Notes: generated by a model not told the origin, from the letters alone. A DNA stretch of 64,000 nt from an uncultured Desulfarculaceae bacterium (GCA_964414345.1 CAYPWF010000005.1:6974-70973); one strand, 5' to 3'. Shown: positions 44,361 through 61,228, numbered from the stretch's first letter. Numbers and translations are program-made.

Positions 44361-44963
44361 ATGCGTGAGCCTTTTGTTGAGTTTGTGAAAAGAGAACTGG
44401 GGCCCCGTACTCTTCTAATAGCCTGCGGCTTGCCGGCCTCCTGGAAGTCAGAAACCACGGAGGTCATAGAACAGCTAAAGGGCTACAAGAGACTTCGCAC
44501 GGACATGATCCGCCTAGAGGTACTCAAGGGTGAAGATGTATTTGACGAAAAAGTGGCCTCCAATATGGACAAAAGAAAGATGGTCTACGACACCATGTTT
44601 CGCATGGCTGAGGAGCTGGCCTCCAAAGGGGAAAGTGTGATATTGGATGCCACCTTTGTGACCCAGGCATTGCGCAAGAGGGCGGCCCAGGTGGCAGACC
44701 GGCACAACATGAGCTTTGTGATCCAGCAGACTCAGTGCCCCCAGGAAGTCTCCTTACGGAGAATCGCCAGGCGCACAAAAGAGAACTATGAATCGAACGC
44801 TATAACCGAGCAGGCCTACTTCAACAACGTGAAGAAATTCGAACCAGTGGATCTAGAGGACATCAAGGCAAGTTACCCGAATTTACGCGTAGTCCACCTG
44901 CTGGTGGACACTACTGAAGATCCGCCAGAGGCCTGGTACGTCATCGGAAAGACAGTTAGGTAA
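44361..44963 (+). CDS. P-loop kinase-like ATP-binding protein (AAA_33/zeta-toxin-like)
   Basis: 200 aa with a deviant P-loop ACGLPASWKSE; commonly paired or fused with APH-like phosphotransferases. Confidence 0.45.
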   Translation: MREPFVEFVKRELGPRTLLIACGLPASWKSETTEVIEQLKGYKRLRTDMIRLEVLKGEDVFDEKVASNMDKRKMVYDTMFRMAEELASKGESVILDATFVTQALRKRAAQVADRHNMSFVIQQTQCPQEVSLRRIARRTKENYESNAITEQAYFNNVKKFEPVDLEDIKASYPNLRVVHLLVDTTEDPPEAWYVIGKTVR

Positions 44964-44977
44964 GGGTTTTGCTGCTC

Positions 44978-45310
44978 CTAGCCCTGGGCCGTTATCCCGA
45001 GCCGATCCTCACAGACTCTCATGCGGGCCTTGAGGTCCCCCATCTCATTGGCCAAGACCAGGTAATCCCGGTCGAACCTGGCCACAATGGCCCTGATGTT
45101 CTCCTTGATTTCGGTAAGTTCCGTCTCCATTCGCCCCAGACGCTCCTCCATGCGAGCAAATCTTTGGTCCATCTGGGCAAATCTTTGGTCCATCTGGGCA
45201 AATCTTTGGTCCATCTGGGCGAACCTCTGGTCCATCTCCCTTCTGAGGCCTTTGATCTCTTCCCGAATGTCTATGAGCACTTGCAAGGTGATGTCTTTGA
45301 TCTCATCCAT
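44978..45310 (-). CDS. Small coiled-coil protein containing a perfect tandem heptad repeat (MDQRFAQ)x4
   Basis: Translation ...REMDQRFAQMDQRFAQMDQRFAQMDQRFARMEERL...; encoded by 21-bp tandem repeats. Confidence 0.5.
   Translation of the reverse strand: MDEIKDITLQVLIDIREEIKGLRREMDQRFAQMDQRFAQMDQRFAQMDQRFARMEERLGRMETELTEIKENIRAIVARFDRDYLVLANEMGDLKARMRVCEDRLGITAQG
45155..45238. repeat. 21-bp tandem repeat (GCAAATCTTTGGTCCATCTGG) in four copies (three perfect, one diverged) inside a CDS
   Basis: Directly visible at 45155-45175, 45176-45196, 45197-45217 and 45218-45238. Confidence 0.9.
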
Positions 45311-45623: not shown

Positions 45624-46655
45624 TCATTGCCCTGCCACTTTCCAGCAGCGCACCAGGTGCCCTTTCATAGGGTAGAATCTGATCTCACCCTGCCTGCAAC
45701 GCTCCTCCACCAGCCAGCAGCGGGCTTGGAACCTGCAGCCAGGCGGAGGATCCAAAGCGGTTCCCACCTCTCCTTTTAGCAAAGGTGGTTCTTTGCGCAT
45801 CTCAGGATCGGGCGCCGGCAGTGCTGCCCAAAGCCCCTTTGAGTAGGGATGAAAGACGCGGCTTTCCAGTGCCTCTGCAGGGGCGTACTCCATTATTTGC
45901 CCCCCATACATTATGGCAACTCGGTGGCTCACATACCTTACCAGATGCAGGTCATGGCTGATGAAGAGATAACTGAGGCCCATGTCTCTTTGCAGTTCCA
46001 GGAGCAAATTGATGATCTGAGCCTGCACTGAGACATCCAGAGCAGAAACCGGCTCATCGCACACCAACAAAGAGGGCTCCACTGTGAGAGCCCTTGCAAT
46101 ACATATTCTCTGACGCTGGCCCCCTGAGAACTCATGAGGGTATTTTGCCGCTGCCCCCCTGGGAAGCCCAACCCTCTCCAGGAGCTCTCCCACCCTCTTC
46201 CTCCTTTCCCATCGGCTTTTGAGTCCCCTTTGCATGAATCCCTCTTCCAGCATCTGGCCCACGGTCATCCTAGGATTCAAAGAGCCGTAAGGATCCTGGA
46301 AAACTATCTGCACTTTGCTTCTAAAAACCTTGAGAGCTTGGCCTTCAAGTGAGGCCACATCCTGCCCCTCGAACCTGATGACACCTTTGTCCAGCTCCAA
46401 GAGCCGCAAGACCAGCCTTCCCAATGTTGACTTTCCGCAGCCCGACTCTCCCACAAGCCCTAAAATCCCGCTCCTTGGCACATCCAGATCTATCCCGTCC
46501 ACAGCATGAACCCAGGCAACGGGTCTCTGGAAAAAACCCCGTCGTATTGGGAACCACTTGTAAAGATCACGCACCTGAAGGATGGAGCCTCCCTGCTGGG
46601 AAAAGTCCTCTTTTGCCTGATCCAGAAGTTCCATTGCCCAAGCCCTGCCTACCAT
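45624..46655 (-). CDS. Peptide/nickel ABC transporter ATP-binding protein (DppF/OppF-like)
   Basis: Walker A GESGCGKST; signature LSGGQRQRICIARAL; C-terminal oligopeptide-transporter extension. Confidence 0.8.
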   Translation of the reverse strand: MVGRAWAMELLDQAKEDFSQQGGSILQVRDLYKWFPIRRGFFQRPVAWVHAVDGIDLDVPRSGILGLVGESGCGKSTLGRLVLRLLELDKGVIRFEGQDVASLEGQALKVFRSKVQIVFQDPYGSLNPRMTVGQMLEEGFMQRGLKSRWERRKRVGELLERVGLPRGAAAKYPHEFSGGQRQRICIARALTVEPSLLVCDEPVSALDVSVQAQIINLLLELQRDMGLSYLFISHDLHLVRYVSHRVAIMYGGQIMEYAPAEALESRVFHPYSKGLWAALPAPDPEMRKEPPLLKGEVGTALDPPPGCRFQARCWLVEERCRQGEIRFYPMKGHLVRCWKVAGQ

Positions 46656-46661
46656 GTTGCC

Positions 46662-47720
46662 TTACCAGCTTCCATGAACCACAGGACATCTGGCTTTATG
46701 GTTTTGCGCGAAGTGGCACATCTCTGGAAGCTCCTCCCTGCAACGTTTGATGGCCAAGGCACACCTGGGGTGGAAAGGGCATCCTCGGGGCCTCTTTGCC
46801 GGATCCGGCACACTGCCGGGGATTGCCGGCAGAAGCTCACCCTTCTTGGCCCTGGCTGGGAGCGATGCCATGAGGCCCCGTGTATAGGGATGGGCCGGCG
46901 CCTTGAAGATCTCACCTACGCTTGATTCCTCCAGCACCATTCCCGAATACATCACCACGGCCCTGTGAGCTATCTGGGCCACCACGGCCAAATCGTGGGT
47001 GATGTATAACAAGGCCATGGAGCGCGTCTCCAGAAGCTCCTTGAAAAGCCTCAGGATCTGAGCCTGGATGGTCACATCCAGGGCTGTTGTAGGCTCATCG
47101 GCTATGAGCAGCTTTGGCTGACAAGCCAGAGCCATGGCTATCACGACCCTTTGCCTCTGGCCTCCGCTCAATTGATGGGGATAGTCCTGAGCCCTCCTGT
47201 CCGGATCCGGCATTCCCACGGCCCTCAGAAGCTCCATAACTCTCTGGGCCGCTTTCTGGCCCGAAATCCCCTCGTGCACAGCCAGCACCTCTTGGATCTG
47301 GTGACCCACCGTAAAGACCGGGTTGAGGGAAGTCATGGGTTCCTGAAATATCATGGATATTTCTTTGCCCCTTATGCGCTGGAGCTCCCGCTCCCCCAGT
47401 TCCAAGAGCTCCTGACCCATGAATCGTATGCTGCCGCCCTCCACCTTGGCCGGCGGCGAGGGCAAAAGCCCCATCACACTCAAAGCGGTGAGGGTCTTGC
47501 CGCAACCTGACTCCCCTACCAGGGAGACAACCTCCCCGTTTCCGAGCCGGAGGTCCACCCCGGCTAGAGCCAGCACAGGCTCCTCACCATCTTCCCCCTG
47601 GAAAGAGACCTTGAGATCTCTGATTTCCAGAAGAGGCTGCTTTGAATCTGAGAATTCCCCCGGTTCACCCATGGAGTCTCCCGCCCAAGCCGAGCCAGCC
47701 TTTGGGGACCGATCAGCCAT
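46662..47720 (-). CDS. Peptide/nickel ABC transporter ATP-binding protein (DppD/OppD-like)
   Basis: Walker A GESGCGKT; signature LSGGQRQRVVIAMAL. Confidence 0.8.
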   Translation of the reverse strand: MADRSPKAGSAWAGDSMGEPGEFSDSKQPLLEIRDLKVSFQGEDGEEPVLALAGVDLRLGNGEVVSLVGESGCGKTLTALSVMGLLPSPPAKVEGGSIRFMGQELLELGERELQRIRGKEISMIFQEPMTSLNPVFTVGHQIQEVLAVHEGISGQKAAQRVMELLRAVGMPDPDRRAQDYPHQLSGGQRQRVVIAMALACQPKLLIADEPTTALDVTIQAQILRLFKELLETRSMALLYITHDLAVVAQIAHRAVVMYSGMVLEESSVGEIFKAPAHPYTRGLMASLPARAKKGELLPAIPGSVPDPAKRPRGCPFHPRCALAIKRCREELPEMCHFAQNHKARCPVVHGSW

Positions 47721-47723
47721 TTG

Positions 47724-48854
47724 TTAGGCCTTTCTCTGCCTCAACCTGGGATTCAAGGCTTCTCTCAGTCCCTCTCCGAAGAGGTTGAAGGCCAGCACCA
47801 CCAGGAGCACTGCACATCCAGGAATAAGGGTCAGCCACGGGGCGTCGAACAGGAACCTTTTCCCGTCCGAAAGGATGTTCCCCCAGGTGGCATGGGGGGG
47901 CGGCACCCCAAAGCCCAAAAAACTCAAACCCGCCTCGGTTAAGATCGCCCCTGCTATGCCCAGGGTTGCCGAAACCAGCACAGGAGCTATTCCATTGGGC
48001 ACCAGATGGCGGAAGATGATCCTTGCGTCCGATAGGCCTAAGGCCTTTGCTGCGGCCACAAAGTCCTGCTCCCTCAAAGCCAGGAATTCAGCCCTCACGA
48101 ACCTGGCCGTGCCCATCCAGCTTGTAAGACCTATTACCGCCATGATGTTGTAGATGCTGGCCGGCAACAGGGCCACCACGGTCAGGATCAAAAAAAAGCT
48201 GGGAAAGCAAAGCATCACGTCCACAAGCCTCATTATGAGTGTGTCTACGGAAATGCAAGGCAGTGTCAGAGCACGGGCCAAGACTCCCTTTTTCCCTCCC
48301 GCCAGCCTGGCCCCCCAAAACAGCAAAACTGATGTAAGACCAAACGCCAGGCCCAGTCCATAGGCCCCTTTCCAGAGGGCCCCAAAAGCCCCAGCAAACC
48401 CCAGGCATCCCCCTAGAGAGCTCAAACCCAAGGCCTTTGGTCCGTAGTAACCGGCCAGACCTCCCAAGAAAATTCCGATTCCCACGGCTATTCCCACGGC
48501 CACAAATCCCACTGTCAGTGAAACCCATGCCCCCTGCATCATTCGCGAGAACACATCCCTGCCCAGGTCATCCGTGCCTAGAATATAGATTCCCAAAGGG
48601 GGAAGCTCGTGAGGTTTGAGAAGCTCCACCCTGGCCTTGGAAAGAGGAGGACGCAGCTTCTCGGGCAGCCGCACCAGGGAGGGGTCAAGCACGGGTCGCT
48701 CCCCAGTGGTGAGGCCTACCCCCAAGACAGCCACGCCTAAAAAAAGCAGGAATACCAAAAGACCGGCAACGGCCATCTTACGCCTTCGAAACTGCTTCCA
48801 GAAATCACTCCACAGGGATTCTGCCTGCTCCTTCTCCTGTTCCCCTACGTCCAC
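47724..48854 (-). CDS. ABC transporter permease (DppC/OppC-like) with a long N-terminal extension
   Basis: Polytopic, with a BPD-transporter EAA-like region (AAKALGLSDARIIFRHLVPN). Confidence 0.75.
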   Translation of the reverse strand: MDVGEQEKEQAESLWSDFWKQFRRRKMAVAGLLVFLLFLGVAVLGVGLTTGERPVLDPSLVRLPEKLRPPLSKARVELLKPHELPPLGIYILGTDDLGRDVFSRMMQGAWVSLTVGFVAVGIAVGIGIFLGGLAGYYGPKALGLSSLGGCLGFAGAFGALWKGAYGLGLAFGLTSVLLFWGARLAGGKKGVLARALTLPCISVDTLIMRLVDVMLCFPSFFLILTVVALLPASIYNIMAVIGLTSWMGTARFVRAEFLALREQDFVAAAKALGLSDARIIFRHLVPNGIAPVLVSATLGIAGAILTEAGLSFLGFGVPPPHATWGNILSDGKRFLFDAPWLTLIPGCAVLLVVLAFNLFGEGLREALNPRLRQRKA

Positions 48855-48882
48855 AGCCAGTCCCTCATGATTTTGTAGTCTT

Positions 48883-49842
48883 TCACAGCCTTATCCTAGG
48901 ATCCACCAACATGTACAGGACGTCCGAAACCAAGGTACCCAACAAAACAAGCACTGCCGAGATAAAGTTGAGAGTAAGTATCACGGGGTAATCCCTGGCC
49001 AAAATGGCCTCGTAGGCCATTCTACCCATGCCGGGCCAGGAGAAAATGGACTCTATGATGACCGAACCCCCTATAAGGCCTGGGATCATAAGCCCGAACA
49101 TGGTCACAAAGGGCAAAAGTGCGTTTCTTAAAGCATGCTTGTAATGCACCATGTCTGAGGGAAGTCCCTTGGCTTTGGCTGTGCGCACATAATCTTGGGA
49201 CTCCACCTCCAGCATCTGGCCTCTCACATACCTGGAAAGCTCTGCAATCCCCACAGTGGCCCCCAGCACCGAGGGTATGACCAGGTGCCAAAGCCGGTCC
49301 ATCCATCTGGCCAGGCCCTTTGTCTCTCCCAATCCGAAGGTTTCCATACCTATGACAGGAACCTGCAAAAGACTCACCACCCCGATGATAAGCAGGTAAG
49401 CGAAGAAAAAACCCGGGATGGAAATCAGGAAATAGGCCACGAAAGTCATCGTCCTGTCGAACCGCCCTCCCCTTCTCACAGCAGCAGTTATTCCCAAGGG
49501 AAAGGAGATGGTCCAGGTCAAAAGAGAGCCCACCAGAAAAAGAGGCAGGCTGTTGAGGAATCTCTCCCAGATCTTTCCCAGCACAGGTTGGTGATCTTTC
49601 CAAGATACCGTGTTTCCTCCCAGGAGATCCTGATAAAAAAGAAGGTATTGCACATGGAGGGGCTGGTCCAGGTGGAAGGCTTTGCGGAACCTCTCTACCA
49701 TCTCGGGTGTAAACTTGGGGTTTAGGGGATCCACCTGACTTGGCTCACCAGGAGCCATGTGCACCACTGCAAAGGAAATCACCGAGACGAAAAAGAGAGT
49801 CACTATCTTCTGTAGAAAGCTCCTAGCAAGAAACGAGATCAT
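48883..49842 (-). CDS. ABC transporter permease (DppB/OppB-like)
   Basis: 319 aa, polytopic; typical DppB N-terminus MISFLARSFLQKIVTLFFVSVISF; EAA-like YVRTAKAKGL. Confidence 0.8.
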   Translation of the reverse strand: MISFLARSFLQKIVTLFFVSVISFAVVHMAPGEPSQVDPLNPKFTPEMVERFRKAFHLDQPLHVQYLLFYQDLLGGNTVSWKDHQPVLGKIWERFLNSLPLFLVGSLLTWTISFPLGITAAVRRGGRFDRTMTFVAYFLISIPGFFFAYLLIIGVVSLLQVPVIGMETFGLGETKGLARWMDRLWHLVIPSVLGATVGIAELSRYVRGQMLEVESQDYVRTAKAKGLPSDMVHYKHALRNALLPFVTMFGLMIPGLIGGSVIIESIFSWPGMGRMAYEAILARDYPVILTLNFISAVLVLLGTLVSDVLYMLVDPRIRL

Positions 49843-49860
49843 GGGCCTATCCTGCCTCCC

Positions 49861-50062
49861 TCATCCTTCCTCCCCTTCTCCCTGCCCTTTCACCCTTCAC
49901 CCTTCACTCTTCATTCTTCACTCTTAATTCTTCATTCTTCACTCTTAATTCTTCATTCTTCACTCTCACTCTTCACTCTTCATTCTTCATTCTTCATTTC
50001 TCCCCCTCTCCCCTTCCCCGCGTCTCCGCCTCTCCGAGTCTCCCCCTCCCCCTCCTTCTCAT
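49861..50062. repeat. Pyrimidine-rich (plus strand) / purine-rich (mRNA strand) microsatellite made of CTTCA(C/T)T- and TTCATTC-type units, followed by a (CTCCC)n-like tract
   Basis: ...cacccttcacccttcactcttcattcttcactcttaattcttcattcttcactcttaattc...ctccccctctccccttccccgcgtctccgcctctccgag... Lies in the intergenic space between the SBP stop and the permease start. Confidence 0.85.
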
Positions 50063-52143
50063 TCCTTATCAAACACCGGGGCCTGCGGGAGTTTCACCCA
50101 TTTGTTGAAGTGAAAAGCGTAATTGCCTGTCCGGGTGGGCGTAATCCTCTTGTAAACAGGATTCCCTTCAGGGTCCTTATCCATTATGACTATTCTCCTG
50201 TCCAGAACCGCCGTCCAACGGGTAACGTACAGGAAGGTGTAGGGCTGCTGTGCTGCTATGATCTCGTGAAGGCGTCTGCAGAGCCTTACCTGTTCTTCAT
50301 GCCTGTATTCCTGTCTTATCCTCACTATGAGCTCATCCGCCTCTGGGTCCTGAAAGCCCACAAAGTTCAGCTGGTGGGGACCAGTCTGGCTGGAATGCCA
50401 TATCTGGTAAAGGTCCGGATCAATTCCCATGGACCAGCCCAACACAACCGCATCAAAATCCCTCTTGTTTATGCGCTCGTTGATGAAAACAGCCCACTCC
50501 ACCATGTCGGTGCGCACCTCTATACCCAACTGCCGCCAGGAGTCTTGGGCTATGGCCAGGATGGCTTTGCGAAGCTCATTCCCGCTATTGGTGATGAGGG
50601 TAAAGCGCATGGGCTGACCGTTTTTGGAAAGCCGGCCTGAGCCGTCCTTGCGCCAGCCCGCTTCTTCCAAGAGCCGCAGTGCCCCCTCTGGGTCATAAGC
50701 AAGAGCTGGAATCCCGGGGTCGTAGTAATCGGTTTGTTTTGGAAAGGGGCCAGTGATCCTCTCTGCCTGGCCGTGAAGCACGTAATCCAGGATCTTTTCC
50801 ACGTCTATTGCCATGCCCAGGGCTTTCCTGACCCGCACATCGTTGAAGGGCTCTCTTCTTAGGTTGTAGCCGATGTAGGTGTACCCGAAGGAGATGCCCG
50901 AGAAGGCCTGGAACCTGGGGTCATGCTGTAGCCTCTCCACCTGGTGAGGCTGCACCGCATAGGAGTCCAAGGTGCCTGCATAGAACTCCATTTCCTGGGT
51001 GACAAGGTCAGGCACAACCCTGAATATGTATTCCTGGTAATTGGGGGGACCCTCCCAGTAATGCTCGAAGCGGGCAAGGCTTACAAACTGGTCGGTCTTC
51101 CATTCTTTGAACTTGAACGGCCCGCAGCCTACCGGATTTCTGTTGAAATTGCTTTGTCTTATTCCGAAGTTGGATGGATCCATGGATCTTTTTTGAGCCT
51201 CTTTTCTCAAAGCCTCCTTGTTAAGAAGGTGCTGGGGCAGGATCCCCATGCTCCATGTACCTAAGGCCGGGGAGTAAAGCCTTTTATACACGACCCTCAC
51301 GGTTCTCTCGTCCGGGGTCTCCACTCTCAGGACCGGTTCGAAGTCAGAGATCCTAGGTGAGAGGTTGGCTGGATCCATTATGGCCTGATAAGTAAATTGC
51401 ACATCCTTGGAAGTTACAGGCACTCCATCATGAAAGAGCACCCCTTCTCTCATGTGGAAAACTATCACTGGGTTGTGCTCCACAGCTGGAAGAATCTCCC
51501 TGGCTATGTGAACCTGCGCCCCCGGATCCACCTCTTGCGGGAAAAGGCAATAATTCTCTGGCTTGAAGGAGTCGAAGTAGCCTTCCCCCAGAAGGGGCTC
51601 CAGCTTTAGAAAAAAATCCTGGTCCACCTCCTTGAGAGTGATCTTCACGAGGGGAGGCGCCTGGACCTGCACCTGTGCGGCCCGCGATTCCGGCTGGCCC
51701 GGCACCTTCACAGAGAGAAAGCGGGGTGGCTCTGCAATTAGCTCCACCCCGCTCACCTGAGGCCATCGGCCGAGCTCCTGCCTCAGCCAAGCCAGGATTT
51801 CTTCCTCTGAACCGCCTTGCATCCCAAGGGGAGGCTTGTAAAGCCTGAAGTAGGCTTCTTCGCTGATTTCCCAGTGGCTTGCCACACGTCCCCTGAATCT
51901 CAAATCCTCGTCCCTGTCCAAAAGCCCCTCAAAGATCAGGCCGGCCAGTTCCACGCTGGAGCTGTCTGCTGCCAGAATCGGATTCAGGAGGCTTGCATCC
52001 CCTATGGAGCCCGTGATGTACTGGGTAAGTCTTCTGGGATTCCCCCTTGTCTGCTCCTCGTAAGTGGGCACCCATAGCAGGGACTGAAGCAGCATCCCCA
52101 CAACCAGCAAAGGTGTCACCATCAGGATTTTTTTTACAAGCAT
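50059..52143 (-). CDS. ABC transporter substrate-binding protein, family 5 (DppA/OppA-like), unusually long at 694 aa
   Basis: Signal peptide MLVKKILMVTPLLVVGMLL; SBP_bac_5-like core; first gene of the Dpp/Opp operon. Confidence 0.7.
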   Translation of the reverse strand: MLVKKILMVTPLLVVGMLLQSLLWVPTYEEQTRGNPRRLTQYITGSIGDASLLNPILAADSSSVELAGLIFEGLLDRDEDLRFRGRVASHWEISEEAYFRLYKPPLGMQGGSEEEILAWLRQELGRWPQVSGVELIAEPPRFLSVKVPGQPESRAAQVQVQAPPLVKITLKEVDQDFFLKLEPLLGEGYFDSFKPENYCLFPQEVDPGAQVHIAREILPAVEHNPVIVFHMREGVLFHDGVPVTSKDVQFTYQAIMDPANLSPRISDFEPVLRVETPDERTVRVVYKRLYSPALGTWSMGILPQHLLNKEALRKEAQKRSMDPSNFGIRQSNFNRNPVGCGPFKFKEWKTDQFVSLARFEHYWEGPPNYQEYIFRVVPDLVTQEMEFYAGTLDSYAVQPHQVERLQHDPRFQAFSGISFGYTYIGYNLRREPFNDVRVRKALGMAIDVEKILDYVLHGQAERITGPFPKQTDYYDPGIPALAYDPEGALRLLEEAGWRKDGSGRLSKNGQPMRFTLITNSGNELRKAILAIAQDSWRQLGIEVRTDMVEWAVFINERINKRDFDAVVLGWSMGIDPDLYQIWHSSQTGPHQLNFVGFQDPEADELIVRIRQEYRHEEQVRLCRRLHEIIAAQQPYTFLYVTRWTAVLDRRIVIMDKDPEGNPVYKRITPTRTGNYAFHFNKWVKLPQAPVFDKE

Positions 52144-52355: not shown

Positions 52356-53645
52356 TCACATAAGGCTCCTGGCCACCCCTACCGTGAGTTCTCCCAACAT
52401 GTGAGTATAAGAACCCAGTTCATTGTCATACCAGCCGTACACCACCACCTGGGTGATGGGGACCTCAAGAATCCCCTCTCGAATCCCTTTGAGAGAGTCT
52501 TGAGCCACAGCACAAAGCCTTGCCAGATTCACCCGGAGATTGGCCGTGCGGGTGTGAGTTTCCTTTCCCTCTATGATGGCCGCCGCAGCCGTGCCTATGA
52601 CATCCGCCGAGACGTTCTGTTTCTCCGTGTATGAAAGGTAGGGGCTCAGGTAGCCTTCCGCAGCCTTTTTGTAAATGGAGTTGATCAAGTCCCTCCTGAT
52701 GGGGGTTGAGGGATCCTCCTCTTGGATGTTTAAGACCAAAATCACCAAGGAGCCTGTGCTGGTGGGGATGCGCACCGACTCTGCCATGAAGCCCACTTCC
52801 CTCATCTCCGGGATAACCAATCTCAAAGCCTCTGCCGCCCCTGTTGTAGTAAGTATGATGTTGTTGAAGGTGCTCCTGTTTTTGCGCAGATCCTTGGCTT
52901 TGGGGTCAGGCAGCCTGTCCAGCACTTCCTGGCTGCCGGTTGCTGCATGCACCGTCACCATGGAGGCGGTCAAAAGAGGTCCTTGTCCAAAATGATCCAA
53001 GATGGGCCTCATCATGAAAGCCAGGCAGGTGGTAGTGCACGAGGCTGCAGAGATGATCCGGTGGCGGCCGGGTAGGTAATCATGCTCATTTATACCCTGT
53101 ATGGCGGTCACTGCATCCTCGGGCATAGAAGCGGACTTGTCCTTGATTTTGAAAGGTGCGGAAAGAATAACCTTCTGTGCTCCTGCCTCCAGATGTGCCC
53201 TCAAGCTTCCTTTGGGGGCATCCCCAGGGGCCGTTGGGTCGGTGAAGGCCCCTGTACAGTCCACCACCAACGAAACGTTCTGTTCCCTCCAAGGGATCTC
53301 CCTGGGATTGCGGCTCTGGCGAAGCACCTTCACCTTGACACCATTCACCTTCATGCTGGATCGGTCCTCATCCAGTTCCTCTATGACGCGCCCCCCCTTG
53401 TATCCAAACAAGAACCTATCCAGGCTTCCATACGTGCTGTCTCTGAGCACATAATCGGCTATGTCCTCCAGCCCCTTCCCCACATCCCTACCTACGTTCA
53501 CCACCAGCTCCTGGAAGGAGCGCCTGGCAACATGATGCCATAAGGTGAGCTTCCCTATCCTGCCCAGCCCGTTTATGCCTAGAGGCATGGGCAGCGTCGA
53601 CTCCTCCGAGCACAGAAAAGGATGATCCTTTGCTGTGAGACTCAT
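52356..53645 (-). CDS. Divergent glyceraldehyde-3-phosphate-dehydrogenase-family paralog (429 aa)
   Basis: N-terminal LGINGLGRIGK (compare INGFGRIGR) and active-site-like SAASCTTTCLAF (compare [12 protein letters not shown]); about 95 aa longer than canonical GAPDH; immediately downstream of the 1422-aa gene. Confidence 0.6.
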   Translation of the reverse strand: MSLTAKDHPFLCSEESTLPMPLGINGLGRIGKLTLWHHVARRSFQELVVNVGRDVGKGLEDIADYVLRDSTYGSLDRFLFGYKGGRVIEELDEDRSSMKVNGVKVKVLRQSRNPREIPWREQNVSLVVDCTGAFTDPTAPGDAPKGSLRAHLEAGAQKVILSAPFKIKDKSASMPEDAVTAIQGINEHDYLPGRHRIISAASCTTTCLAFMMRPILDHFGQGPLLTASMVTVHAATGSQEVLDRLPDPKAKDLRKNRSTFNNIILTTTGAAEALRLVIPEMREVGFMAESVRIPTSTGSLVILVLNIQEEDPSTPIRRDLINSIYKKAAEGYLSPYLSYTEKQNVSADVIGTAAAAIIEGKETHTRTANLRVNLARLCAVAQDSLKGIREGILEVPITQVVVYGWYDNELGSYTHMLGELTVGVARSLM

Positions 53646-53649: not shown

Positions 53650-56600
53650 TCACCTCCCCATGTGCATTACTTCCCCTGCCGCCCTCAGGGTCTTGTGCTC
53701 CACAGGATGGCGTCCCAAGTAGATGGAGCCGCCCCTGCCGTCCATGCTCAGAAAGTCCCCCTCTCGAATCACCACATCATGGATCCGACAAGGACCTCTT
53801 TCGCTCAGCAAGCGCAGCCCTCCGGTGCCCACAACACAGGTCTTCCCAAGCCTCAGAGCCACTATGGCAGCATGGGAGGTCTGGCCCCCCTTGGCGGTGA
53901 GAAGCCCGTCGCTGAGCGATATCTCCTTGATGTCGTCCGGCACAGTATCCGAACGTATAAGAATCAAAGGTGTCTCAGGCTCCTTCTCCCTCCATCTCTG
54001 GATCTCCTCCAGGGTGAAGACCGCCCTTCCCGACAAAGCGCCGCCGCTCACCCCAGTCCCTTTTCCCAGGTAATGCTCATGAAGATCGCTAGAGGCCACG
54101 AAGACCGGCATTGTCTCCGTGCGCCTCATGGTGACCATGTCCCTTGTCTGCAAAACATAAAGACTGTCCGGATCAGGTCCTTCGAAAGTAAACTCTATTT
54201 CCTGGGGGTTCCATCCCTTGTCGTAAACCAGCATCTTGCAGACCCCCTCCAGAGCCCTGTAAACCCCTGGGAACTCCTCTTCCAGGGTAGGCTCCCCATG
54301 ACGGCCAGACTCCTCCCTCTGCTCCCTGGAGATGGGGTAGGTTGTCACTAGGCCGGCCACTATGTCCTCGCCCTGGTTCATGGCCGTGTAGTCCCCCCAA
54401 AGCACCACACGACGCATGCGCTTGGCTGGATTTGCAGTAAATAGGACTCCGCTTCCAGAGTTGGGACCAATATTTCCAAAGACCATTGCCTGCACGATCA
54501 CGGCAGTGCCCCAGTCATCGGAGATCCCCATTATTTCCCTGTAATCCCTTGCCTTGCTTGAGTCCCAGGAGTAGATGACTCTATGAATCGCTGTCTCCAA
54601 CTGTTCCCAAGGATCCTCCTCGATCCTGATGTGGCGTTCCTCCAGGGCTCTCTTATAGGCCAGGGCCATTTCCCGCATCTGCTCTCCGGTGAACTGGCGC
54701 TTCTTTTCAACAGCGTGTCTGGCCTTCCATTCCCTCATGATCTCGTTGAAGGCCTCTCTCTCCATTCCGAAAGACATTCCCCAAGATTGCAGGAAGCGCC
54801 GGTAGTTGTCCCATGCAAACCAGGGGTTCCCAGAGGAGGCGGCCAAGCCCTGGGCCACCTCTTCATTGATGCCCACATTGAGCAGGGTGTCCATCATTCC
54901 GGGCATGGATATGGTGGCCCCGCTTCGCACGGACACCAGAAGAGGCCTATGGGGATCCCCGAAACGGTTCCCTGTGGCCTCCTCCATTTCCCTAATCTCC
55001 GAGCTTATCTGATCCAGAAAGTCCTCGTGGGCCTGCGGAAACCTCAGCACTATGTGGTGGCAGCGGGAAACTTCCGTGGTAATTATGAAGCCTGGTGGGA
55101 CCTTCACACCCGCCTCTGCCAAGACCACCAGATTGTATCCTTTGGAACCCAGGTGGATGGAGTCCCGGGTGAGCTCTTTGGCCTGGTGGATGGGGGAGAC
55201 CACCTTGTCCGGATCGTAGGTCATGAGCAGATCCAGATCCTCCTCCGATAGGGTCTCTTTCTGAAGGGCTAGGGTCTGATGTATCTTGGTCAGAAAATTG
55301 TCCAGATATTGGAGTCCAAAGGTGCTGGAGACCAGGTCCCTCAGGAAGCGCTCCGAGATGCGGTGCACGAAGGCCTCATCGTCCTGGTCCGCGGCGTATC
55401 CCACGTAAGTGGGAAGGATGTGTTTTCGGCCCAAAGAGCTTATGACCATTGTCAGGTTGTCTTTGTGCACGTCCGCATAGTAAACATTGAGGATGTCTTT
55501 TACGCCTTCAGAAAGGCCCCTCAGGATGTCCAAGTACTGGGTGTAAGTGAATCTTCTGATCTCCAGCGACTTCTCCAAGAGTTTGAACTGGGCGTCCAGG
55601 CGCTGGGAGGATATGCCGTCTATCTGCATGGCCCGGATAAAAAGCCTGATGCAACGCACGATTCTGAAGAAAACGGCACGGGTTATGAGGGAGAGGTTTA
55701 CGGAGCCTATGAGCCGTTCAAAATAGAGATTTGCCAGGTTCTCCAGCCTGAAAGAAAGCCCCAAGGCATCGAACTTTCTCTCGTGGTAGCGCCCGTACAT
55801 GGAAGGAATGTCTGCAGCTATGTGCCTCTTATGGTAAATGTCTTCGGTGACCTCATAGGTCTCAGGGGAGAGAATGACCTCTTTTAGCTTCTCCAGATAA
55901 CTTAGAAGCACATCCAGACATTCTTCGGGATCATCACGATCCAGGACTGCCTGTAGCTTCTCCAGACCCGTAAATCCGTGTGCAGCCGCCTGGGAGAGGT
56001 GATACCTGATTTCCTGGAAACCAAGGTAGTATTTTTGGTAAACCAGCCTGTACATTCTGACCAGGAGACGCACTCTTTCCCGCTCAATATCGCTGACCCC
56101 CTGAACTTTGGAAACCGCCCGGCTGAGTTCTTCCTCGGGGAGATCCAGCAGATCCTTCACTCCTTTGAGGTTGTAATCCCGAAAAACTTGGCTCATCACC
56201 TTGTGGGGTTCCAAAACCAGTGGGCTTTCAGGATCCAACTGTTGGAAGACTTCCTCGGGGAGAAAATGGGAAAGCCCTGACTTGTCCAAGCTGATCCAAA
56301 ATCGGAAAATCTCCTCCACGAATTCCACGATTAGGTTGCTGCTCTCCACATGACTTTGCTTTCTGAGAAAGTGGATCAGGGGATCGCGCCTTCTGTGGAT
56401 TTCGTCCATGTCAGTGGAGACGTCCCTTAACAGGCCCTCTGCACCTATCTCGTTGAAGAAAGCCGGGATCAACTTGGTGAGCTGTTTGACCAAGTTGTAA
56501 AGGGGAGCTATGTCGCTATTCAGCAGCTTGCTTATGTCCTTCTGGAAGAGGTCCGTGTCTCTTATGCAGGTGCCTGCCAGTTTCAGATTTATGATAAGGG

Positions 56601-57918
56601 CCGAGAGCAAAGTGGTGCACCACTTAGGCTGAATACAAATCAGGTCCAGCCAGATGCGGATGTTCAGTAGGTGGTTGGGGTTGCAAAGCCATTGCCATTC
56701 TGTGTCAACCCCTGTCACCTCCGGAGGCTGGAACCCGAAGCGCACCACCTGCTCCAAAAATACCTCCACCAGCCTGGACTGCCCCTTCTTAAAGACCTCC
56801 TGACCTATGGCGTTAATGCACTGAAGGGCAGTACGGGGATAGTGCACCACATTTTCTTTTAGCAAAGAAAAGGTCCTGAGCAGGAAGGACTCCAGCCTCT
56901 GGGGTAGCTCGCTCCTGATCATCTCTGTTAGAGAGCGCTGGATGTCCCTCAAGGTCTCCTCGTAGATCTCAGAGAGCCTAGAGGTGTTCATTATCTTAAA
57001 GAGGAGCAGAATCTTTCCGTCCCTGAGCAGATCCTCACCTGCCCCTTTGGAGGTAAGATTCAGGGCTGACATGCGCTCTGGGAGTTCACGGTACATCCGA
57101 ACCAGTTCCAGATGGCCGGGCATCTGCAAGAGCTTTTTTGCTGTCTCCACCGGGGTGAAGCCTCCATCCAAGCCCTCCAGGAACTTGAGGTGGCCCTTCA
57201 ACCTGTGGTGGGAAAGTTCCGCAAGCAGATCGCTCAACGGGCCGGAAGGGGGCTCCTGTGCGAACTCCTTTCTAAACCAGGCCACAGGATCTTCCTCTTG
57301 CAGCCATTCCAGATAAGTTATGTGCAACAGCTCCTTTAGGAGCTCATTGAGAGGGACCAAGCCTGCTCCGTCGGACTCCATGGAGAGAAGATTCAAACCC
57401 ATTCTCTTAAGGGGATGGTAGCTCCTGGCCAATAGCTCTTTTTGAGGCTGGGGAAGCCCTTTTAGCCGCTCCAGAGCCTCCCCCAGGACTTCAATATAGG
57501 GCTTTGGATCCTCTGAGAGGCATGTTTGAACCACCTTCTCCATGTAACTCAGGGCACACTCCAAGGCCTGGGACTGGATCTCCTTGCGCTTGGCAAGGCT
57601 CATGGCCTCCAGGAAGACCTCCAAGATAAGGCCCACCGCCTCATGCCCCTTGGGGTGGCGCCTGTAAGAGTCCAGGTTCTTGAGGGCAAAACCTCTCAAC
57701 TCCGAAAGTATCAGCTTCCAGTTGCGGAATGGGTGATGAAGCTCGAAGAGCAAGGAGTCCACGGTCTTGCGAAGACCTCTGTATTCAGAGACCACCTCCT
57801 GGAGCACCCTGAACCTGGGATGGATGTGCACGCTGGAGACCGCCGTCTCCTCAAGGTTACGGCGAAGCGCCTCTGATTCTTCCAGGAGTGCCCTTGAATC
57901 CATACCATCCGAGCTCAT
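53650..57918 (-). CDS. Large multidomain phosphotransferase-like protein: novel ~880-aa N-terminal region, then a PEP-synthase/PPDK-type nucleotide-binding domain, then a PEP-utilizer phosphohistidine swivel domain
   Basis: PPDK_N-like HLGSKGYNLVVLAEAGVKVPPGFIITTE around aa 900; C-terminal mobile domain KGGQTSHAAIVALRLGKTCVVGTGG. No PEP/pyruvate-binding TIM barrel follows. Confidence 0.6.
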   Translation of the reverse strand: MSSDGMDSRALLEESEALRRNLEETAVSSVHIHPRFRVLQEVVSEYRGLRKTVDSLLFELHHPFRNWKLILSELRGFALKNLDSYRRHPKGHEAVGLILEVFLEAMSLAKRKEIQSQALECALSYMEKVVQTCLSEDPKPYIEVLGEALERLKGLPQPQKELLARSYHPLKRMGLNLLSMESDGAGLVPLNELLKELLHITYLEWLQEEDPVAWFRKEFAQEPPSGPLSDLLAELSHHRLKGHLKFLEGLDGGFTPVETAKKLLQMPGHLELVRMYRELPERMSALNLTSKGAGEDLLRDGKILLLFKIMNTSRLSEIYEETLRDIQRSLTEMIRSELPQRLESFLLRTFSLLKENVVHYPRTALQCINAIGQEVFKKGQSRLVEVFLEQVVRFGFQPPEVTGVDTEWQWLCNPNHLLNIRIWLDLICIQPKWCTTLLSALIINLKLAGTCIRDTDLFQKDISKLLNSDIAPLYNLVKQLTKLIPAFFNEIGAEGLLRDVSTDMDEIHRRRDPLIHFLRKQSHVESSNLIVEFVEEIFRFWISLDKSGLSHFLPEEVFQQLDPESPLVLEPHKVMSQVFRDYNLKGVKDLLDLPEEELSRAVSKVQGVSDIERERVRLLVRMYRLVYQKYYLGFQEIRYHLSQAAAHGFTGLEKLQAVLDRDDPEECLDVLLSYLEKLKEVILSPETYEVTEDIYHKRHIAADIPSMYGRYHERKFDALGLSFRLENLANLYFERLIGSVNLSLITRAVFFRIVRCIRLFIRAMQIDGISSQRLDAQFKLLEKSLEIRRFTYTQYLDILRGLSEGVKDILNVYYADVHKDNLTMVISSLGRKHILPTYVGYAADQDDEAFVHRISERFLRDLVSSTFGLQYLDNFLTKIHQTLALQKETLSEEDLDLLMTYDPDKVVSPIHQAKELTRDSIHLGSKGYNLVVLAEAGVKVPPGFIITTEVSRCHHIVLRFPQAHEDFLDQISSEIREMEEATGNRFGDPHRPLLVSVRSGATISMPGMMDTLLNVGINEEVAQGLAASSGNPWFAWDNYRRFLQSWGMSFGMEREAFNEIMREWKARHAVEKKRQFTGEQMREMALAYKRALEERHIRIEEDPWEQLETAIHRVIYSWDSSKARDYREIMGISDDWGTAVIVQAMVFGNIGPNSGSGVLFTANPAKRMRRVVLWGDYTAMNQGEDIVAGLVTTYPISREQREESGRHGEPTLEEEFPGVYRALEGVCKMLVYDKGWNPQEIEFTFEGPDPDSLYVLQTRDMVTMRRTETMPVFVASSDLHEHYLGKGTGVSGGALSGRAVFTLEEIQRWREKEPETPLILIRSDTVPDDIKEISLSDGLLTAKGGQTSHAAIVALRLGKTCVVGTGGLRLLSERGPCRIHDVVIREGDFLSMDGRGGSIYLGRHPVEHKTLRAAGEVMHMGR

Positions 57919-57972: not shown

Positions 57973-59019
<1,047 letters not shown>

Positions 59020-59254
59020 TTAAGTGCTCGGGCTCCAGCGGTTCAAGCTCTGATAGCCGAATGGAAATCCGTTTCCCCTAAGTTTGAGCAGCACCATGCT
59101 CTGATATCAACCGATTCAGGCTCAATATAGCATCAGGGTCGGAGGGCTGCAACAAGGCCTCTGTTGATTCAATGAGAATGGCTTGACGGGTTGGGGAACA
59201 ACTCATAGCATCTTGAGGGGTTGACCAATCCTTTGGCGGGAGGAGGTATGAGTC

Positions 59255-60463
59255 ATGAGATTCCGAAGCATCGACCAGATGGAACTTCGGGGAAAACGCG
59301 TGCTTGTCCGGGTGGACTTCAATGTGCCTTTGGACTCAGAGGGTAAAATAACCGATGACACCCGCATCAAGAGCGCCCTTCCCACCCTCCAACATGCCTT
59401 AAGAAAAGGGGCCAGGGTGATTTTGGCCTCTCATCTGGGGAGGCCCAAAGGGAAGCCCGACCCCAAATATTCCATGGCTCCCTGTGCCAAACGCTTGGCC
59501 GAGCTCCTTAATCGAAGGGTGGATCTGGCTCCTAACTGTGTGGGTCCTCAGGTGGAAGAAATGGTGGCAAAAATGGCCGAAGGGGATCTACTGATGTTGG
59601 AAAACCTGCGATTCCACCCCGAAGAGGAGGCCAATGATGAGGGCTTCGCAAAGGCTTTGGCAAGACTGGCCGATGTGTTCATAAACGACGGGTTTGCAGT
59701 AGCGCACAGGGCCAACGCCTCGGTGGAGGCCATCACCCGCTTCTGCCCGGAATGTGGCGCAGGGCTTCTCATGAAAAAGGAGTTGGAGTCCTTCTCGAGG
59801 GCCTTGGAAAACCCGGCCAGACCCTTGGTGGCCATATTGGGGGGCGGGAAGGTGGCCGACAAGCTGGGGGCTGTGCGCAGGCTCCTAACTGTGGCGGACA
59901 AGGTCATCATCGGGGGGGCTCTGGCTTACACTTTTCTGAAGGCCGGCGGCCTGGACACTGGGGCTTCTTTGGTGGAGACAGATCTGCTCTCCCATGCCGG
60001 CCAGCTCATGAGAAGAGCCAGAAAAAAGGGGCTCAAACTCTATCTACCTGTGGACTGCGTAATGGCCCAGGAACGCTCTGCCCAGGCCAAGCTCCTCATT
60101 AGGCCTGTTCAGGAAATGCCGGCAGGTTGGATGGGGCTTGATATAGGACCTGCATCAGTGGCTCTTTTTAAAGAGGTCTTGGAGGATGCCAAGACCATAA
60201 TCTGGAACGGTCCCATGGGGGTTTACGAGTTGGAACCCTTCAGCAAAGGCACCAGAGAGCTGGTCAAGGCAGTGGCAAGAAGCAATGCCTTCAGTATCCT
60301 GGGCGGAGGAGACCTGGACGCGGCTGTGCACCAATCCGGCCAGACCAAGGGTATCTCTTACATATCCACGGGAGGTGGGGCCTTTGTGGAGCTTGTGGAG
60401 GGGAGAAAACTCCCAGGCGTGGAAGCTCTCATCCGCTGCTCCAAAACTAAAAGGAGGCGTTGA
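59255..60463 (+). CDS. pgk: Phosphoglycerate kinase
   Basis: LRGKRVLVRVDFNVPL; GGGAFVELVEGRKLPGVEAL; 402 aa. Confidence 0.9.
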   Translation: MRFRSIDQMELRGKRVLVRVDFNVPLDSEGKITDDTRIKSALPTLQHALRKGARVILASHLGRPKGKPDPKYSMAPCAKRLAELLNRRVDLAPNCVGPQVEEMVAKMAEGDLLMLENLRFHPEEEANDEGFAKALARLADVFINDGFAVAHRANASVEAITRFCPECGAGLLMKKELESFSRALENPARPLVAILGGGKVADKLGAVRRLLTVADKVIIGGALAYTFLKAGGLDTGASLVETDLLSHAGQLMRRARKKGLKLYLPVDCVMAQERSAQAKLLIRPVQEMPAGWMGLDIGPASVALFKEVLEDAKTIIWNGPMGVYELEPFSKGTRELVKAVARSNAFSILGGGDLDAAVHQSGQTKGISYISTGGGAFVELVEGRKLPGVEALIRCSKTKRRR

Positions 60464-60466
60464 TCC

Positions 60467-61228
60467 ATGCGAAAAGCGCTTGTGGCCGGTAACTGGAAGA
60501 TGTACATGACCCGCATCCAGGCAATAGAACTGCTCAAGGGGCTCAGGCAGGAGCTGGGAGGCAAGACTTACCAAACCCAGGTGGTCTTGGCTCCTCCTTT
60601 CACAGCCTTGGAAACGGTGGCAAGGGAGATTCAAGGCTCCGGATGGGGCCTGGCTGCACAAAACGGGTTCTGGGAAAAGGAGGGGGCTTTCACAGGGGAG
60701 ATCTCCTTCCCCATGTTGGCCGAGCTTGGATGTTCCATGGTCATCTTGGGACATTCGGAGAGGAGACATTTCTTCGGGGAGAAAGATGAGTGGGTGCGCA
60801 GGAAGCTGGAGGCAGCCTTGGCCTTCGGTCTAACCCCCATACTCTGTGTAGGGGAGACCCTGGAACAAAGGGATCAGGCACAGACCCTTGAGGTTGTAAG
60901 AAGGCAGCTCCAAGAGGCCTTGGGGGGGCTGCAGGAGGAGGGGGCCAAGGAGTTCGTGGTGGCTTATGAGCCTGTTTGGGCCATAGGCACGGGTAGGACG
61001 GCTACTCCTTCCCAAGCCCAGGAAGTGCATGCCATGATAAGGCAATGGCTAGGGGAACGCTTCTCCTTAGCGCGGGCCGATGCAACCAGGATCCTCTACG
61101 GGGGGAGCGTAAAACCCGAGAACATAGCTGACCTCATGGCATGCCCCGACATAGACGGCGCGCTGGTGGGAGGTGCGAGTCTCAAGGCGGATTCCTTTGC
61201 AGCAATAGTCAGGCTTGGGAAAGACTGA
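60467..61228 (+). CDS. tpiA: Triosephosphate isomerase
   Basis: LVAGNWKM; AYEPVWAIGTGRTAT; IVLGHSERR. Confidence 0.9.
   Translation: MRKALVAGNWKMYMTRIQAIELLKGLRQELGGKTYQTQVVLAPPFTALETVAREIQGSGWGLAAQNGFWEKEGAFTGEISFPMLAELGCSMVILGHSERRHFFGEKDEWVRRKLEAALAFGLTPILCVGETLEQRDQAQTLEVVRRQLQEALGGLQEEGAKEFVVAYEPVWAIGTGRTATPSQAQEVHAMIRQWLGERFSLARADATRILYGGSVKPENIADLMACPDIDGALVGGASLKADSFAAIVRLGKD

What the first reader, a model, noticed from the sequence alone, without database searches (positions are those of the whole stretch)
52356..53645. Second, elongated GAPDH-family gene (429 aa) in addition to canonical gap
It retains the Rossmann start (INGLGRIGK) and the catalytic Cys motif (SCTTTC), but carries ~95 extra residues and a divergent substrate-binding region (no obvious S-loop match). 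Paralogs like this often have altered substrate specificity (erythrose-4-P, aspartate-semialdehyde-like) or non-phosphorylating specificity. Its tight linkage to the dikinase-like giant suggests a dedicated pathway role rather than redundancy.
Basis: partly seen in the sequence, partly recalled or inferred. Interest (0 to 1): 0.5.

Follow-up and report, generated by a model that had tools for sequence, protein, structure and literature searches.

The report
Long-form GAPDH paralog in glycolytic operon
This gene encodes a distinct, conserved "long" version of the ordinary sugar-metabolism enzyme GAPDH, found in sulfate-reducing bacteria and their relatives; its full catalytic machinery is intact, so it most likely does the normal reaction, probably with a different cofactor preference, rather than something exotic.

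Summary
It is a type I GAPDH with about 95 extra residues spread over several conserved insertions. The catalytic Cys/His, both phosphate sites and a recognisable S-loop are all intact, and they are invariant in 88/88 relatives. This argues against a non-phosphorylating enzyme or a changed substrate. The NAD-specifying Asp32 is absent in 88/88 and an invariant Arg sits at position 34, which suggests NADP(H) or dual cofactor use. The co-transcribed canonical GapA keeps Asp32. The protein belongs to an uncharacterised clade present in at least 588 Thermodesulfobacteriota species genomes. It scores below the NCBIfam GAPDH-I cutoff and is about 35% identical to ordinary GapA. Its usual place is beside pgk and tpi. 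The arrangement gapA - 1422-aa PPDK-derived "giant" - long GAPDH is conserved across all deep branches of the clade, but one derived clade (Desulfobulbia) has split it up. The giant's commonest neighbour is canonical gapA, not the long GAPDH. Best reading: a gluconeogenic/glycolytic GAPDH isoenzyme, analogous in function to GapB. The giant is the more intriguing unknown: it has a PPDK ATP/phospho-His module, lacks the TIM barrel, and carries a 900-aa alpha-solenoid.

The parts
52356..53645 (-). Long-form type I GAPDH paralog, 429 aa
   Evidence: ORF. Pfam Gp_dh_N and Gp_dh_C. TIGR01534 328.9 bits, below the 367.2 cutoff. AF2 model pLDDT 82.3 with a GAPDH fold, target-normalised TM about 0.85.
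53550..53579 (-). Rossmann dinucleotide-binding motif GINGLGRIGK (aa 23-32)
   Evidence: invariant in the family.
53487..53498 (-). Cofactor-specificity site N50-V51-G52-R53, equivalent to canonical N31-D32-L33-T34. Asp32 is lost and an invariant Arg is gained.
   Evidence: Strand beta2 ends at N50 in the model, which agrees with the HMMER register. 0/88 relatives have an acidic residue at position 32 and 88/88 have Arg at position 34. Role of Asp32: PMC9145139.
53382..53417 (-). Insertion 1 (aa 77-88, RFLFGYKGGRVI) in the NAD(P)-binding domain
   Evidence: mean conservation 0.75 against 0.79 for the core.
53202..53225 (-). Insertion 2 (aa 141-148, GDAPKGSL), after the STG-F cofactor loop
   Evidence: conservation 0.69. 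G146 is invariant.
53112..53138 (-). Insertion 3 (aa 170-178, KSASMPEDA), after the SAP loop
   Evidence: conservation 0.70. P175 is invariant.
53025..53042 (-). Catalytic motif SCTTTC (Ser148, Cys149, Thr150 equivalents; aa 202-207)
   Evidence: invariant in 88/88.
52875..52949 (-). His176 equivalent (H233), Thr179 (T236) and the S-loop with +4 residues. It includes R254, K255 (the Arg195 position) and R257.
   Evidence: Modelled with low pLDDT (236-262), as expected for a segment that packs at the tetramer interface.
52770..52850 (-). Pi/Ps-site residues T268-G269 (Thr208-Gly209) and R292 (Arg231)
   Evidence: invariant.
52464..52550 (-). Insertion 7 (aa 366-394): a 29-aa protruding beta-arm with two short helices that contains Cys378
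   Evidence: It is the least conserved insertion (0.46). It is 30-32 aa in the giant-linked clade and mostly 24-29 aa in the giant-free clade.
53650..57918 (-). 1422-aa 'giant'. The N-terminal ~905 aa form an alpha-solenoid. The C-terminal part is a PPDK nucleotide-binding domain plus a phospho-His swivel domain (His1349). There is no PEP/pyruvate TIM barrel.
57973..58977 (-). Canonical NAD-type gapA (334 aa, AIND with Asp32), first gene of the operon
   Evidence: TIGR01534 448.5 bits, above the cutoff. Motifs.
59255..61228 (+). pgk (59255-60463) and tpi (60467-61228), transcribed divergently from gapA
   Evidence: ORFs. TIM Pfam hit. The pgk ORF matches pgk genes across the loci.

Best explanation
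The gene encodes a working phosphorylating glyceraldehyde-3-phosphate dehydrogenase that interconverts G3P + Pi + NAD(P)+ and 1,3-bisphosphoglycerate + NAD(P)H. It belongs to a distinct 'long' clade of type I GAPDH that is restricted to Thermodesulfobacteriota. It operates in central gluconeogenesis/glycolysis together with PGK and TPI. Because it lacks the NAD-specifying Asp32 and carries an invariant Arg two residues later, it probably accepts NADP(H), either alone or alongside NAD(H). It would then serve as the anabolic partner of the co-transcribed NAD-type GapA, a division of labour analogous to Bacillus GapA/GapB. The ~95 extra residues are conserved surface insertions on the standard fold. 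Three of them flank the cofactor cleft, and one is a long beta-arm on the catalytic domain. They probably tune cofactor handling and/or oligomer or partner contacts. What is shown: the fold, the residues, the family, and the gene context. What is inferred: the substrate, the cofactor, the physiological direction, and the role of the insertions.
For: Both GAPDH Pfam domains are present and the best NCBIfam hit is GAPDH-I. The AF2 model superposes on solved GAPDHs with target-normalised TM about 0.85. Cys149, His176, Thr179, Arg231, Ser148, Thr150, Thr208, Gly209, Arg194, Arg197, Tyr311, Asn313 and Glu314 equivalents are invariant in 27/27 and 88/88 family members. Arg195 is conservatively Lys in 81/88 and Arg in 7/88. 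pgk lies immediately downstream in 57/76 loci. In 29/53 loci the long GAPDH heads pgk with no other gap within 10 kb. In Dissulfurirhabdus the order is gapA-giant-long GAPDH-pgk-tpi-secG. In the window, pgk-tpi are divergent neighbours. Cofactor: position 32 is V/I/L/T/A/M and never acidic (0/88), and position 34 is Arg in 88/88. The window's GapA has AIND. PMC9145139 states that Asp at this position strictly prohibits NADP+ binding, that D32A/K and T37K-type changes give dual specificity, and that Bacillus GapA/GapB split NAD-linked glycolysis from NADP-linked gluconeogenesis. The insertions are nearly as conserved as the core (0.69-0.75 against 0.79).
Against: No enzymology exists for any member; five literature searches found nothing specific. 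The protein scores below the curated TIGR01534 equivalog cutoff. Leu187-Pro188 of the S-loop, which disfavour NADP in canonical enzymes, are retained, so NADP use is not assured. Placing an anabolic and a catabolic isoenzyme in one operon is unlike the differentially regulated Bacillus gapA/gapB genes. The fixed changes R195K, D181S, N180G and N152T near the active site could alter kinetics or specificity in ways sequence cannot reveal. The ancestral linkage to the giant hints at a function beyond plain isoenzyme redundancy.
Confidence: 0.6

Rival explanations
1. The long GAPDH is the dedicated reductase of a two-enzyme module with the giant. The giant uses ATP + Pi to charge its swivel His1349 and transfers the phosphoryl group to 3-phosphoglycerate (or another carboxylate), making an acyl phosphate. 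The flanking GAPDH(s) reduce that acyl phosphate immediately. This would be a PGK bypass that yields AMP + PPi.
For: The giant's stop and the long GAPDH start are 4 nt apart, with a Shine-Dalgarno inside the giant. The gapA-giant-long GAPDH trio is conserved across all deep branches of both gene trees and across genera. The giant keeps an intact PPDK-type ATP/Pi module and catalytic His but lacks the pyruvate/PEP barrel, so it must have another acceptor. It lies next to a GAPDH in most loci (51/68 have gapA upstream). The N-terminal region has invariant basic motifs. Phosphohistidine-to-acyl-phosphate transfer has a precedent in succinyl-CoA synthetase (established knowledge).
Against: The long GAPDH occurs without an adjacent giant in 29/53 loci, and the giant occurs without an adjacent long GAPDH in 39/58. 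pgk is retained in the same clusters. The giant's N-terminus is an alpha-solenoid with no recognisable small-molecule or enzyme fold. No biochemical evidence exists.
Confidence: 0.15
2. The long GAPDH has shifted substrate specificity. It would oxidise or reduce a different phosphorylated aldehyde such as erythrose-4-P, or work without phosphate.
For: The clade is deeply divergent (about 35% identity to GapA; below the equivalog cutoff). It has fixed substitutions near the active site (R195K, D181S/T, N180G, N152T, W315L, Y317S). It has conserved insertions around the cofactor/substrate cleft.
Against: The Ps and Pi anion-site residues and the catalytic dyad are invariant. Epd models give 134 and 120 bits against cutoffs of 530 and 539, which is lower than the canonical GapA of the same window scores on them. 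The ArsJ-type model gives 180 against 450, and there is no ASD hit. The genomic partners are pgk and tpi, not pdxB/serC, arsJ or amino-acid genes.
Confidence: 0.1
3. Together with the co-transcribed NAD-type GapA, the long GAPDH mainly forms a G3P/1,3-BPG-mediated NADH/NADPH transhydrogenase cycle. Alternatively it has a regulatory or moonlighting (non-metabolic) role.
For: An Asp32-containing GAPDH and an Asp32-less GAPDH are encoded in one operon. If both are active at once, they necessarily equilibrate the two pyridine-nucleotide pools (inference).
Against: In the Desulfobulbia clade the two genes are unlinked. Cofactor preference is only inferred. Complete conservation of the catalytic residues argues against a purely non-enzymatic role.
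Confidence: 0.1

Closest known systems
Canonical bacterial type I GAPDH (GapA; e.g. Thermus thermophilus 1VC2, Geobacillus stearothermophilus 1GD1, Corynebacterium glutamicum 8HRO)
   Same: Same two-domain fold (Foldseek target-normalised TM about 0.85). Same catalytic Cys/His, Ps and Pi phosphate sites and WYDNE motif. Same genomic association with pgk and tpi.
   Different: Only about 32-35% identical. There are about 95 extra residues in an N-terminal tail plus internal insertions that no solved structure covers (query-normalised TM about 0.67). Asp32 is replaced by a hydrophobic residue and there is an invariant Gly-Arg at positions 33-34. R195K, D181S, N152T, W315L and Y317S are fixed. 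It scores below the TIGR01534 cutoff.
Bacillus subtilis GapB (NADP-dependent gluconeogenic GAPDH, 8WWZ), partner of NAD-dependent GapA
   Same: It is a second GAPDH paralog beside an NAD-type GapA. It lacks the Asp32 that excludes NADP+. The presumed role is anabolic (8WWZ is among the structural matches).
   Different: It is not a sequence relative of GapB beyond general GAPDH similarity. GapB has normal length. Leu187-Pro188 are retained here. The two paralogs are co-transcribed here rather than oppositely regulated (what is known about GapB regulation comes from established knowledge, not from tests here).
Long (~480 aa) GAPDH class PRK08289 / NF006139 of Gammaproteobacteria
   Same: It is another GAPDH-family clade that is much longer than 335 aa.
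   Different: The score is 137 bits against a cutoff of 431. In that class the extra length is an N-terminal block of about 130 aa (the match begins at profile position 133), whereas here the extra residues are dispersed internal insertions.
Pyruvate, phosphate dikinase (PPDK; e.g. 1KBL, 5JVN), for the neighbouring giant
   Same: The giant's aa 922-1404 align to PPDK residues 22-512, covering the ATP-grasp nucleotide/Pi domain and the swivelling phospho-His domain with the GG(M/Q)TSHAA motif.
   Different: The PEP/pyruvate TIM-barrel domain is absent. A 905-aa all-alpha solenoid precedes the module. TIGR01828 scores 399 bits against a cutoff of 843. The acceptor substrate is therefore unknown.

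Membership tests
Type I phosphorylating GAPDH (Pfam PF00044 + PF02800; NCBIfam TIGR01534) | N-terminal NAD(P)-binding domain and C-terminal catalytic domain both detected above the Pfam gathering scores | tested here: met
   Gp_dh_N 61.5 bits (cutoff 31.7) and Gp_dh_C 94.6 bits (cutoff 24.4).
Type I phosphorylating GAPDH (Pfam PF00044 + PF02800; NCBIfam TIGR01534) | Score at or above the curated equivalog cutoff of TIGR01534 | tested here: not met
   328.9 bits against a cutoff of 367.2. The canonical GapA of the same operon scores 448.5.
Type I phosphorylating GAPDH (Pfam PF00044 + PF02800; NCBIfam TIGR01534) | Catalytic Cys149 and His176 | tested here: met
   C203 and H233. Invariant in 27/27 and 88/88.
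Type I phosphorylating GAPDH (Pfam PF00044 + PF02800; NCBIfam TIGR01534) | Ps site (Thr179, Arg231) and Pi site (Ser148, Thr150, Thr208, Gly209) | tested here: met
   T236, R292, S202, T204, T268 and G269 are invariant in 88/88.
Type I phosphorylating GAPDH (Pfam PF00044 + PF02800; NCBIfam TIGR01534) | Arg195 of the Pi site | tested here: inconclusive
   The position is Lys in the window protein and in 81/88 relatives, and Arg in 7/88. The positive charge is kept but the residue is changed.
Type I phosphorylating GAPDH (Pfam PF00044 + PF02800; NCBIfam TIGR01534) | GAPDH three-dimensional fold | tested here: met
   AF2 pLDDT 82.3 and pTM 0.83. Foldseek E about 1e-32 and target-normalised TM 0.83-0.87 to many solved GAPDHs.
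Type I phosphorylating GAPDH (Pfam PF00044 + PF02800; NCBIfam TIGR01534) | Pi-dependent G3P oxidation / 1,3-BPG reduction activity | not testable with these tools
   This requires an enzyme assay. No literature on any family member was found.
NAD-specific glycolytic GapA | Asp32 at the end of strand beta2, binding the adenosine ribose and excluding NADP+ | tested here: not met
   The position is V51 in the window protein, and 0/88 family members have an acidic residue there. The role of Asp32 is described in PMC9145139.
NADP-accepting (GapB-like / dual-cofactor) GAPDH | No acidic residue at position 32, plus a basic or small residue at positions 33-34 to accommodate the 2'-phosphate | tested here: met
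   V/I/L/T/A/M at position 32, with invariant G52 and R53. The engineered D32A/K and T37K precedents are in PMC9145139.
NADP-accepting (GapB-like / dual-cofactor) GAPDH | S-loop positions 187/188 changed from Leu-Pro (to N/T/V and K/R/S) | tested here: not met
   The family has L (or V) at 187 and P at 188. The criterion comes from PMC9145139.
Erythrose-4-phosphate dehydrogenase (Epd) | Score at or above the cutoffs of TIGR01532 / NF010058 | tested here: not met
   133.8 bits against 530.55 and 120 against 539. These are lower than the window's canonical GapA scores on the same models (331.8 and 343.7).
ArsJ-associated GAPDH | Score at or above the NF033735 cutoff, and an adjacent arsJ transporter gene | tested here: not met
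   180 bits against 450. The neighbours are the giant and an Opp-type ABC transporter.
PRK08289 long GAPDH | Score at or above the NF006139 cutoff, and an N-terminal extension of about 130 aa | tested here: not met
   137.2 bits against 431. The extra residues here are dispersed insertions.
Pyruvate, phosphate dikinase (for the neighbouring giant) | Three-domain enzyme that includes the C-terminal PEP/pyruvate TIM barrel | tested here: not met
   Only PPDK_N and PEP-utilizers are found. The alignment to PPDK stops at residue 512 and the protein ends 18 aa later. TIGR01828 scores 398.8 against 843.45.

The most novel reading that the evidence does not exclude
The conserved trio gapA - giant - long GAPDH is a previously unrecognised three-protein unit of lower gluconeogenesis/glycolysis in Thermodesulfobacteriota. 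The PPDK-derived giant uses its phospho-His swivel domain to interconvert 3-phosphoglycerate + ATP + Pi and 1,3-bisphosphoglycerate + AMP + PPi. This would be a dikinase-type PGK bypass, attractive for organisms whose sulfate activation produces AMP and PPi. The giant's alpha-solenoid would dock the two GAPDHs so that the labile acyl phosphate is channelled. The clade-specific insertions of the long GAPDH, especially the 29-aa beta-arm, would be the docking surfaces.
Probability: 0.12. Interest if true: 0.8.

Novelty: new variant of a known kind. Interest (0 to 1): 0.4.

Why it matters
GAPDH is among the best-studied enzymes, yet this clade has no biochemical or structural characterisation. 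It is present in at least 588 species genomes of sulfate reducers, sulfur disproportionators, syntrophs and cable bacteria. Databases name it only by automatic annotation, and it falls below the curated equivalog threshold. If it is the NADP(H)-linked anabolic enzyme, that changes how the redox balance of gluconeogenesis should be modelled in these environmentally important autotrophs and acetate or propionate oxidisers. Metabolic reconstructions currently count it as 'just another GAPDH' and count its 1400-aa neighbour as 'PEP synthase' (for example PMC8780430). The latter is almost certainly wrong, because the pyruvate/PEP domain is missing. The conserved linkage gives a concrete, testable entry point to the function of that large orphan dikinase family.

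Full report
OBSERVATION. The minus strand carries an ATG-initiated 429-aa ORF at 52356..53645. It contains GINGLGRIGK at aa 23-32 and SCTTTC at aa 202-207. It matches both Pfam GAPDH domains above gathering: Gp_dh_N 61.5 bits and Gp_dh_C 94.6 bits. It is the last gene of an apparent operon made of canonical gapA (57973..58977, 334 aa), a 1422-aa protein (53650..57918) and this gene. The giant's TGA is followed by 4 nt and then the ATG, and a GGAGG lies inside the giant's last codons. This indicates co-transcription and probably translational coupling. pgk and tpi (59255..61228, + strand) are transcribed divergently from gapA.

The substrate-binding region is not divergent and the S-loop is present. 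I aligned the protein to solved GAPDHs (best match 1VC2, E 1e-43) and to the co-resident GapA. The equivalents of Cys149, His176, Thr179, Arg231, Ser148, Thr150, Thr208, Gly209, Arg194, Arg197, Pro188, Tyr311, Asn313 and Glu314 are all present. They are invariant in a 27-member family alignment and in 88 relatives recovered from genomic loci. The S-loop carries 4 extra residues. Arg195 is conservatively Lys (81/88; Arg in 7/88), and Asp181 is Ser or Thr. The extra length is dispersed: an N-terminal tail of about 19 aa, insertions at aa 77-88, 141-148, 170-178 and 366-394, and a few of 1-5 aa. The three insertions in the nucleotide-binding domain are almost as conserved as the core (0.69-0.75 against 0.79). 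The 29-aa C-terminal insertion is less conserved (0.46). An AlphaFold2 model built on the family alignment is confident (pLDDT 82.3, pTM 0.83). It superposes on many solved GAPDHs with target-normalised TM of about 0.85 but query-normalised TM of about 0.67. This means the fold is standard and no solved structure covers the insertions.

THE FAMILY. The protein belongs to a large, tightly conserved clade of 405-450-aa GAPDH-like proteins. There are more than 120 database clusters at 60% identity or above. Nearly all are Thermodesulfobacteriota: Desulfobulbia including cable bacteria, Thermodesulfatator, Caldimicrobium, Desulfobacterales, Syntrophia, Dissulfurirhabdus and Desulfarculaceae. The closest genomic relative is a Desulfarculaceae MAG at 76% identity. 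The clade is about 32-35% identical to canonical GapA. It scores 328.9 bits on TIGR01534, below the 367.2 cutoff, and fits no specialised NCBIfam model: Epd 134 and 120 bits, ArsJ-type 180, PRK08289 137, all far below their cutoffs. Sources name it only generically. Five literature searches found no characterisation. A recent review of glycolytic enzyme phylogeny treats bacterial GAPDH as a single class.

COFACTOR SITE. In the model, strand beta2 ends at N50. V51, G52 and R53 therefore take the places of canonical Asp32, Leu33 and Thr34. Across 88 relatives, position 32 is never acidic (V/I/L/T/A/M), Gly33 is invariant and Arg34 is invariant. The operon's canonical GapA has AIND with Asp32. 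According to PMC9145139, Asp at this position strictly prohibits NADP+ binding. Replacing it (D32A/G/K), or adding a basic residue as in C. glutamicum T37K, gives dual NAD/NADP use. Bacillus GapA (NAD, glycolysis) and GapB (NADP, gluconeogenesis) divide labour in this way. I therefore infer that the long GAPDH accepts NADP(H). The caveat is that Leu187-Pro188, which disfavour NADP in canonical enzymes, are retained.

GENE CONTEXT. I examined 82 loci carrying the long GAPDH. pgk lies directly downstream in 57 of 76 informative loci. The giant lies directly upstream in 33 of 65. Among the 53 loci informative on both sides, 29 are long GAPDH followed by pgk, with no giant and no canonical gapA within 10 kb. 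Another 21 have the giant, and 14 of those also have gapA ahead of it. In Dissulfurirhabdus thermomarina the order is gapA - giant - long GAPDH - pgk - tpi - secG. The complete Dissulfurimicrobium hydrothermale genome lists consecutive tags for pgk, GAPDH, 'PEP synthase' and GAPDH (PMC8780430). For the reverse test I collected 80 metagenomic loci with the giant's N-terminal region as bait. Only 19 of 58 informative giants have the long GAPDH downstream, whereas 51 of 68 have canonical gapA directly upstream. Where the long GAPDH is missing, the downstream genes are unrelated to each other.

PHYLOGENY OF THE LINKAGE. Neighbour-joining trees resolve the apparent conflict. Giant-linked long GAPDHs occupy all deep branches, and the giant-free ones form one derived clade (Desulfobulbia). 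The giant tree shows the mirror split. A Desulfobulbaceae giant that stands alone in its locus is 70-77% identical to the unlinked clade and only about 55% identical to the linked clade. The simplest reading is an ancestral gapA-giant-long GAPDH(-pgk-tpi) cluster that one lineage broke up.

INTERPRETATION. The invariant catalytic and phosphate-site residues, the standard fold and the habitual position next to pgk and tpi all point the same way. The long GAPDH most likely catalyses the ordinary phosphorylating G3P/1,3-BPG reaction (shown: residues, fold, context; inferred: activity). The remodelled position 32-34 site makes NADP(H) or dual cofactor use likely. This suggests a GapB-like anabolic isoenzyme beside NAD-type GapA (confidence about 0.6 for the whole statement). 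The 'dedicated pathway with the giant' proposal is only partly supported. The linkage is ancient and widespread, but it is dispensable, and the giant is more constantly tied to canonical gapA.

RIVALS. (a) The long GAPDH is a functional module with the giant, in which giant-His~P converts a carboxylate such as 3-PG to its acyl phosphate for immediate reduction (about 0.15). (b) Substrate specificity has shifted (about 0.1). (c) The GapA/long-GAPDH pair acts mainly as a transhydrogenase cycle, or the protein has a regulatory role (about 0.1).

NOVELTY AND SCORE. A second GAPDH paralog with different cofactor preference is a familiar theme, so the finding itself is of moderate interest (0.4). 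What is new is a well-defined, uncharacterised long clade with conserved insertions, plus its ancestral association with an orphan PPDK-derived alpha-solenoid protein. I classify it as a new variant of a known kind. The most novel reading not excluded is a dikinase-type PGK bypass with GAPDH channelling. I give it about 12% probability. It would be of high interest if true.

Noticed in passing
[not shown]
   Followed up: partly
window 55729-55839 (-), giant aa 694-730: The most conserved block of the giant's N-terminus is IYHKRHIAADIPSMYGRYHERKFDALGLSFRLENLAN. It is rich in invariant basic residues and coincides with the only predicted beta-hairpin, which is modelled with low confidence. It could be a ligand-binding or domain-docking site.
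   Followed up: no
window 58978-61228: pgk (59255-60463) and tpi (60467-61228) are transcribed divergently from gapA-giant-long GAPDH across a 277-bp intergenic region. In most relatives pgk-tpi instead follow the long GAPDH on the same strand.
   Followed up: partly
window 52464-52550 (-), long GAPDH aa 366-394; loci L001-L162: The C-terminal beta-arm insertion is 30-32 aa in the giant-linked clade but mostly 24-29 aa in the giant-free Desulfobulbia clade. It contains a Cys (C378) that most family members conserve, and one subgroup has a second Cys about 14 residues later. This may be a partner-contact or redox-regulatory element.
   Followed up: no
loci L083-L163; PMC8780430: In one clade (Desulfobulbia) the trio is split into separate gapA-giant (or solitary giant) and long-GAPDH-pgk loci. 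Dissulfurimicrobium hydrothermale has three GAPDH genes and two pgk genes, one pgk with the trio and one in a second GAPDH-pgk pair. The giant is counted there as 'phosphoenolpyruvate synthase' in the published reconstruction.
   Followed up: partly
window 44978-45310 (-): A 110-aa ORF carries four tandem copies of the heptad MDQRFAQ and gives weak coiled-coil-type Pfam hits. A mirror ORF on the opposite strand shows the same repeat.
   Followed up: no
window 43126-44963 (+): An adjacent pair of predicted small kinases, APH-family (371 aa) and AAA_33 / zeta-toxin-like (200 aa), lies between an LPG-synthase-like membrane protein gene and the Opp-type peptide ABC transporter operon (45624-52143, -).
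   Followed up: no
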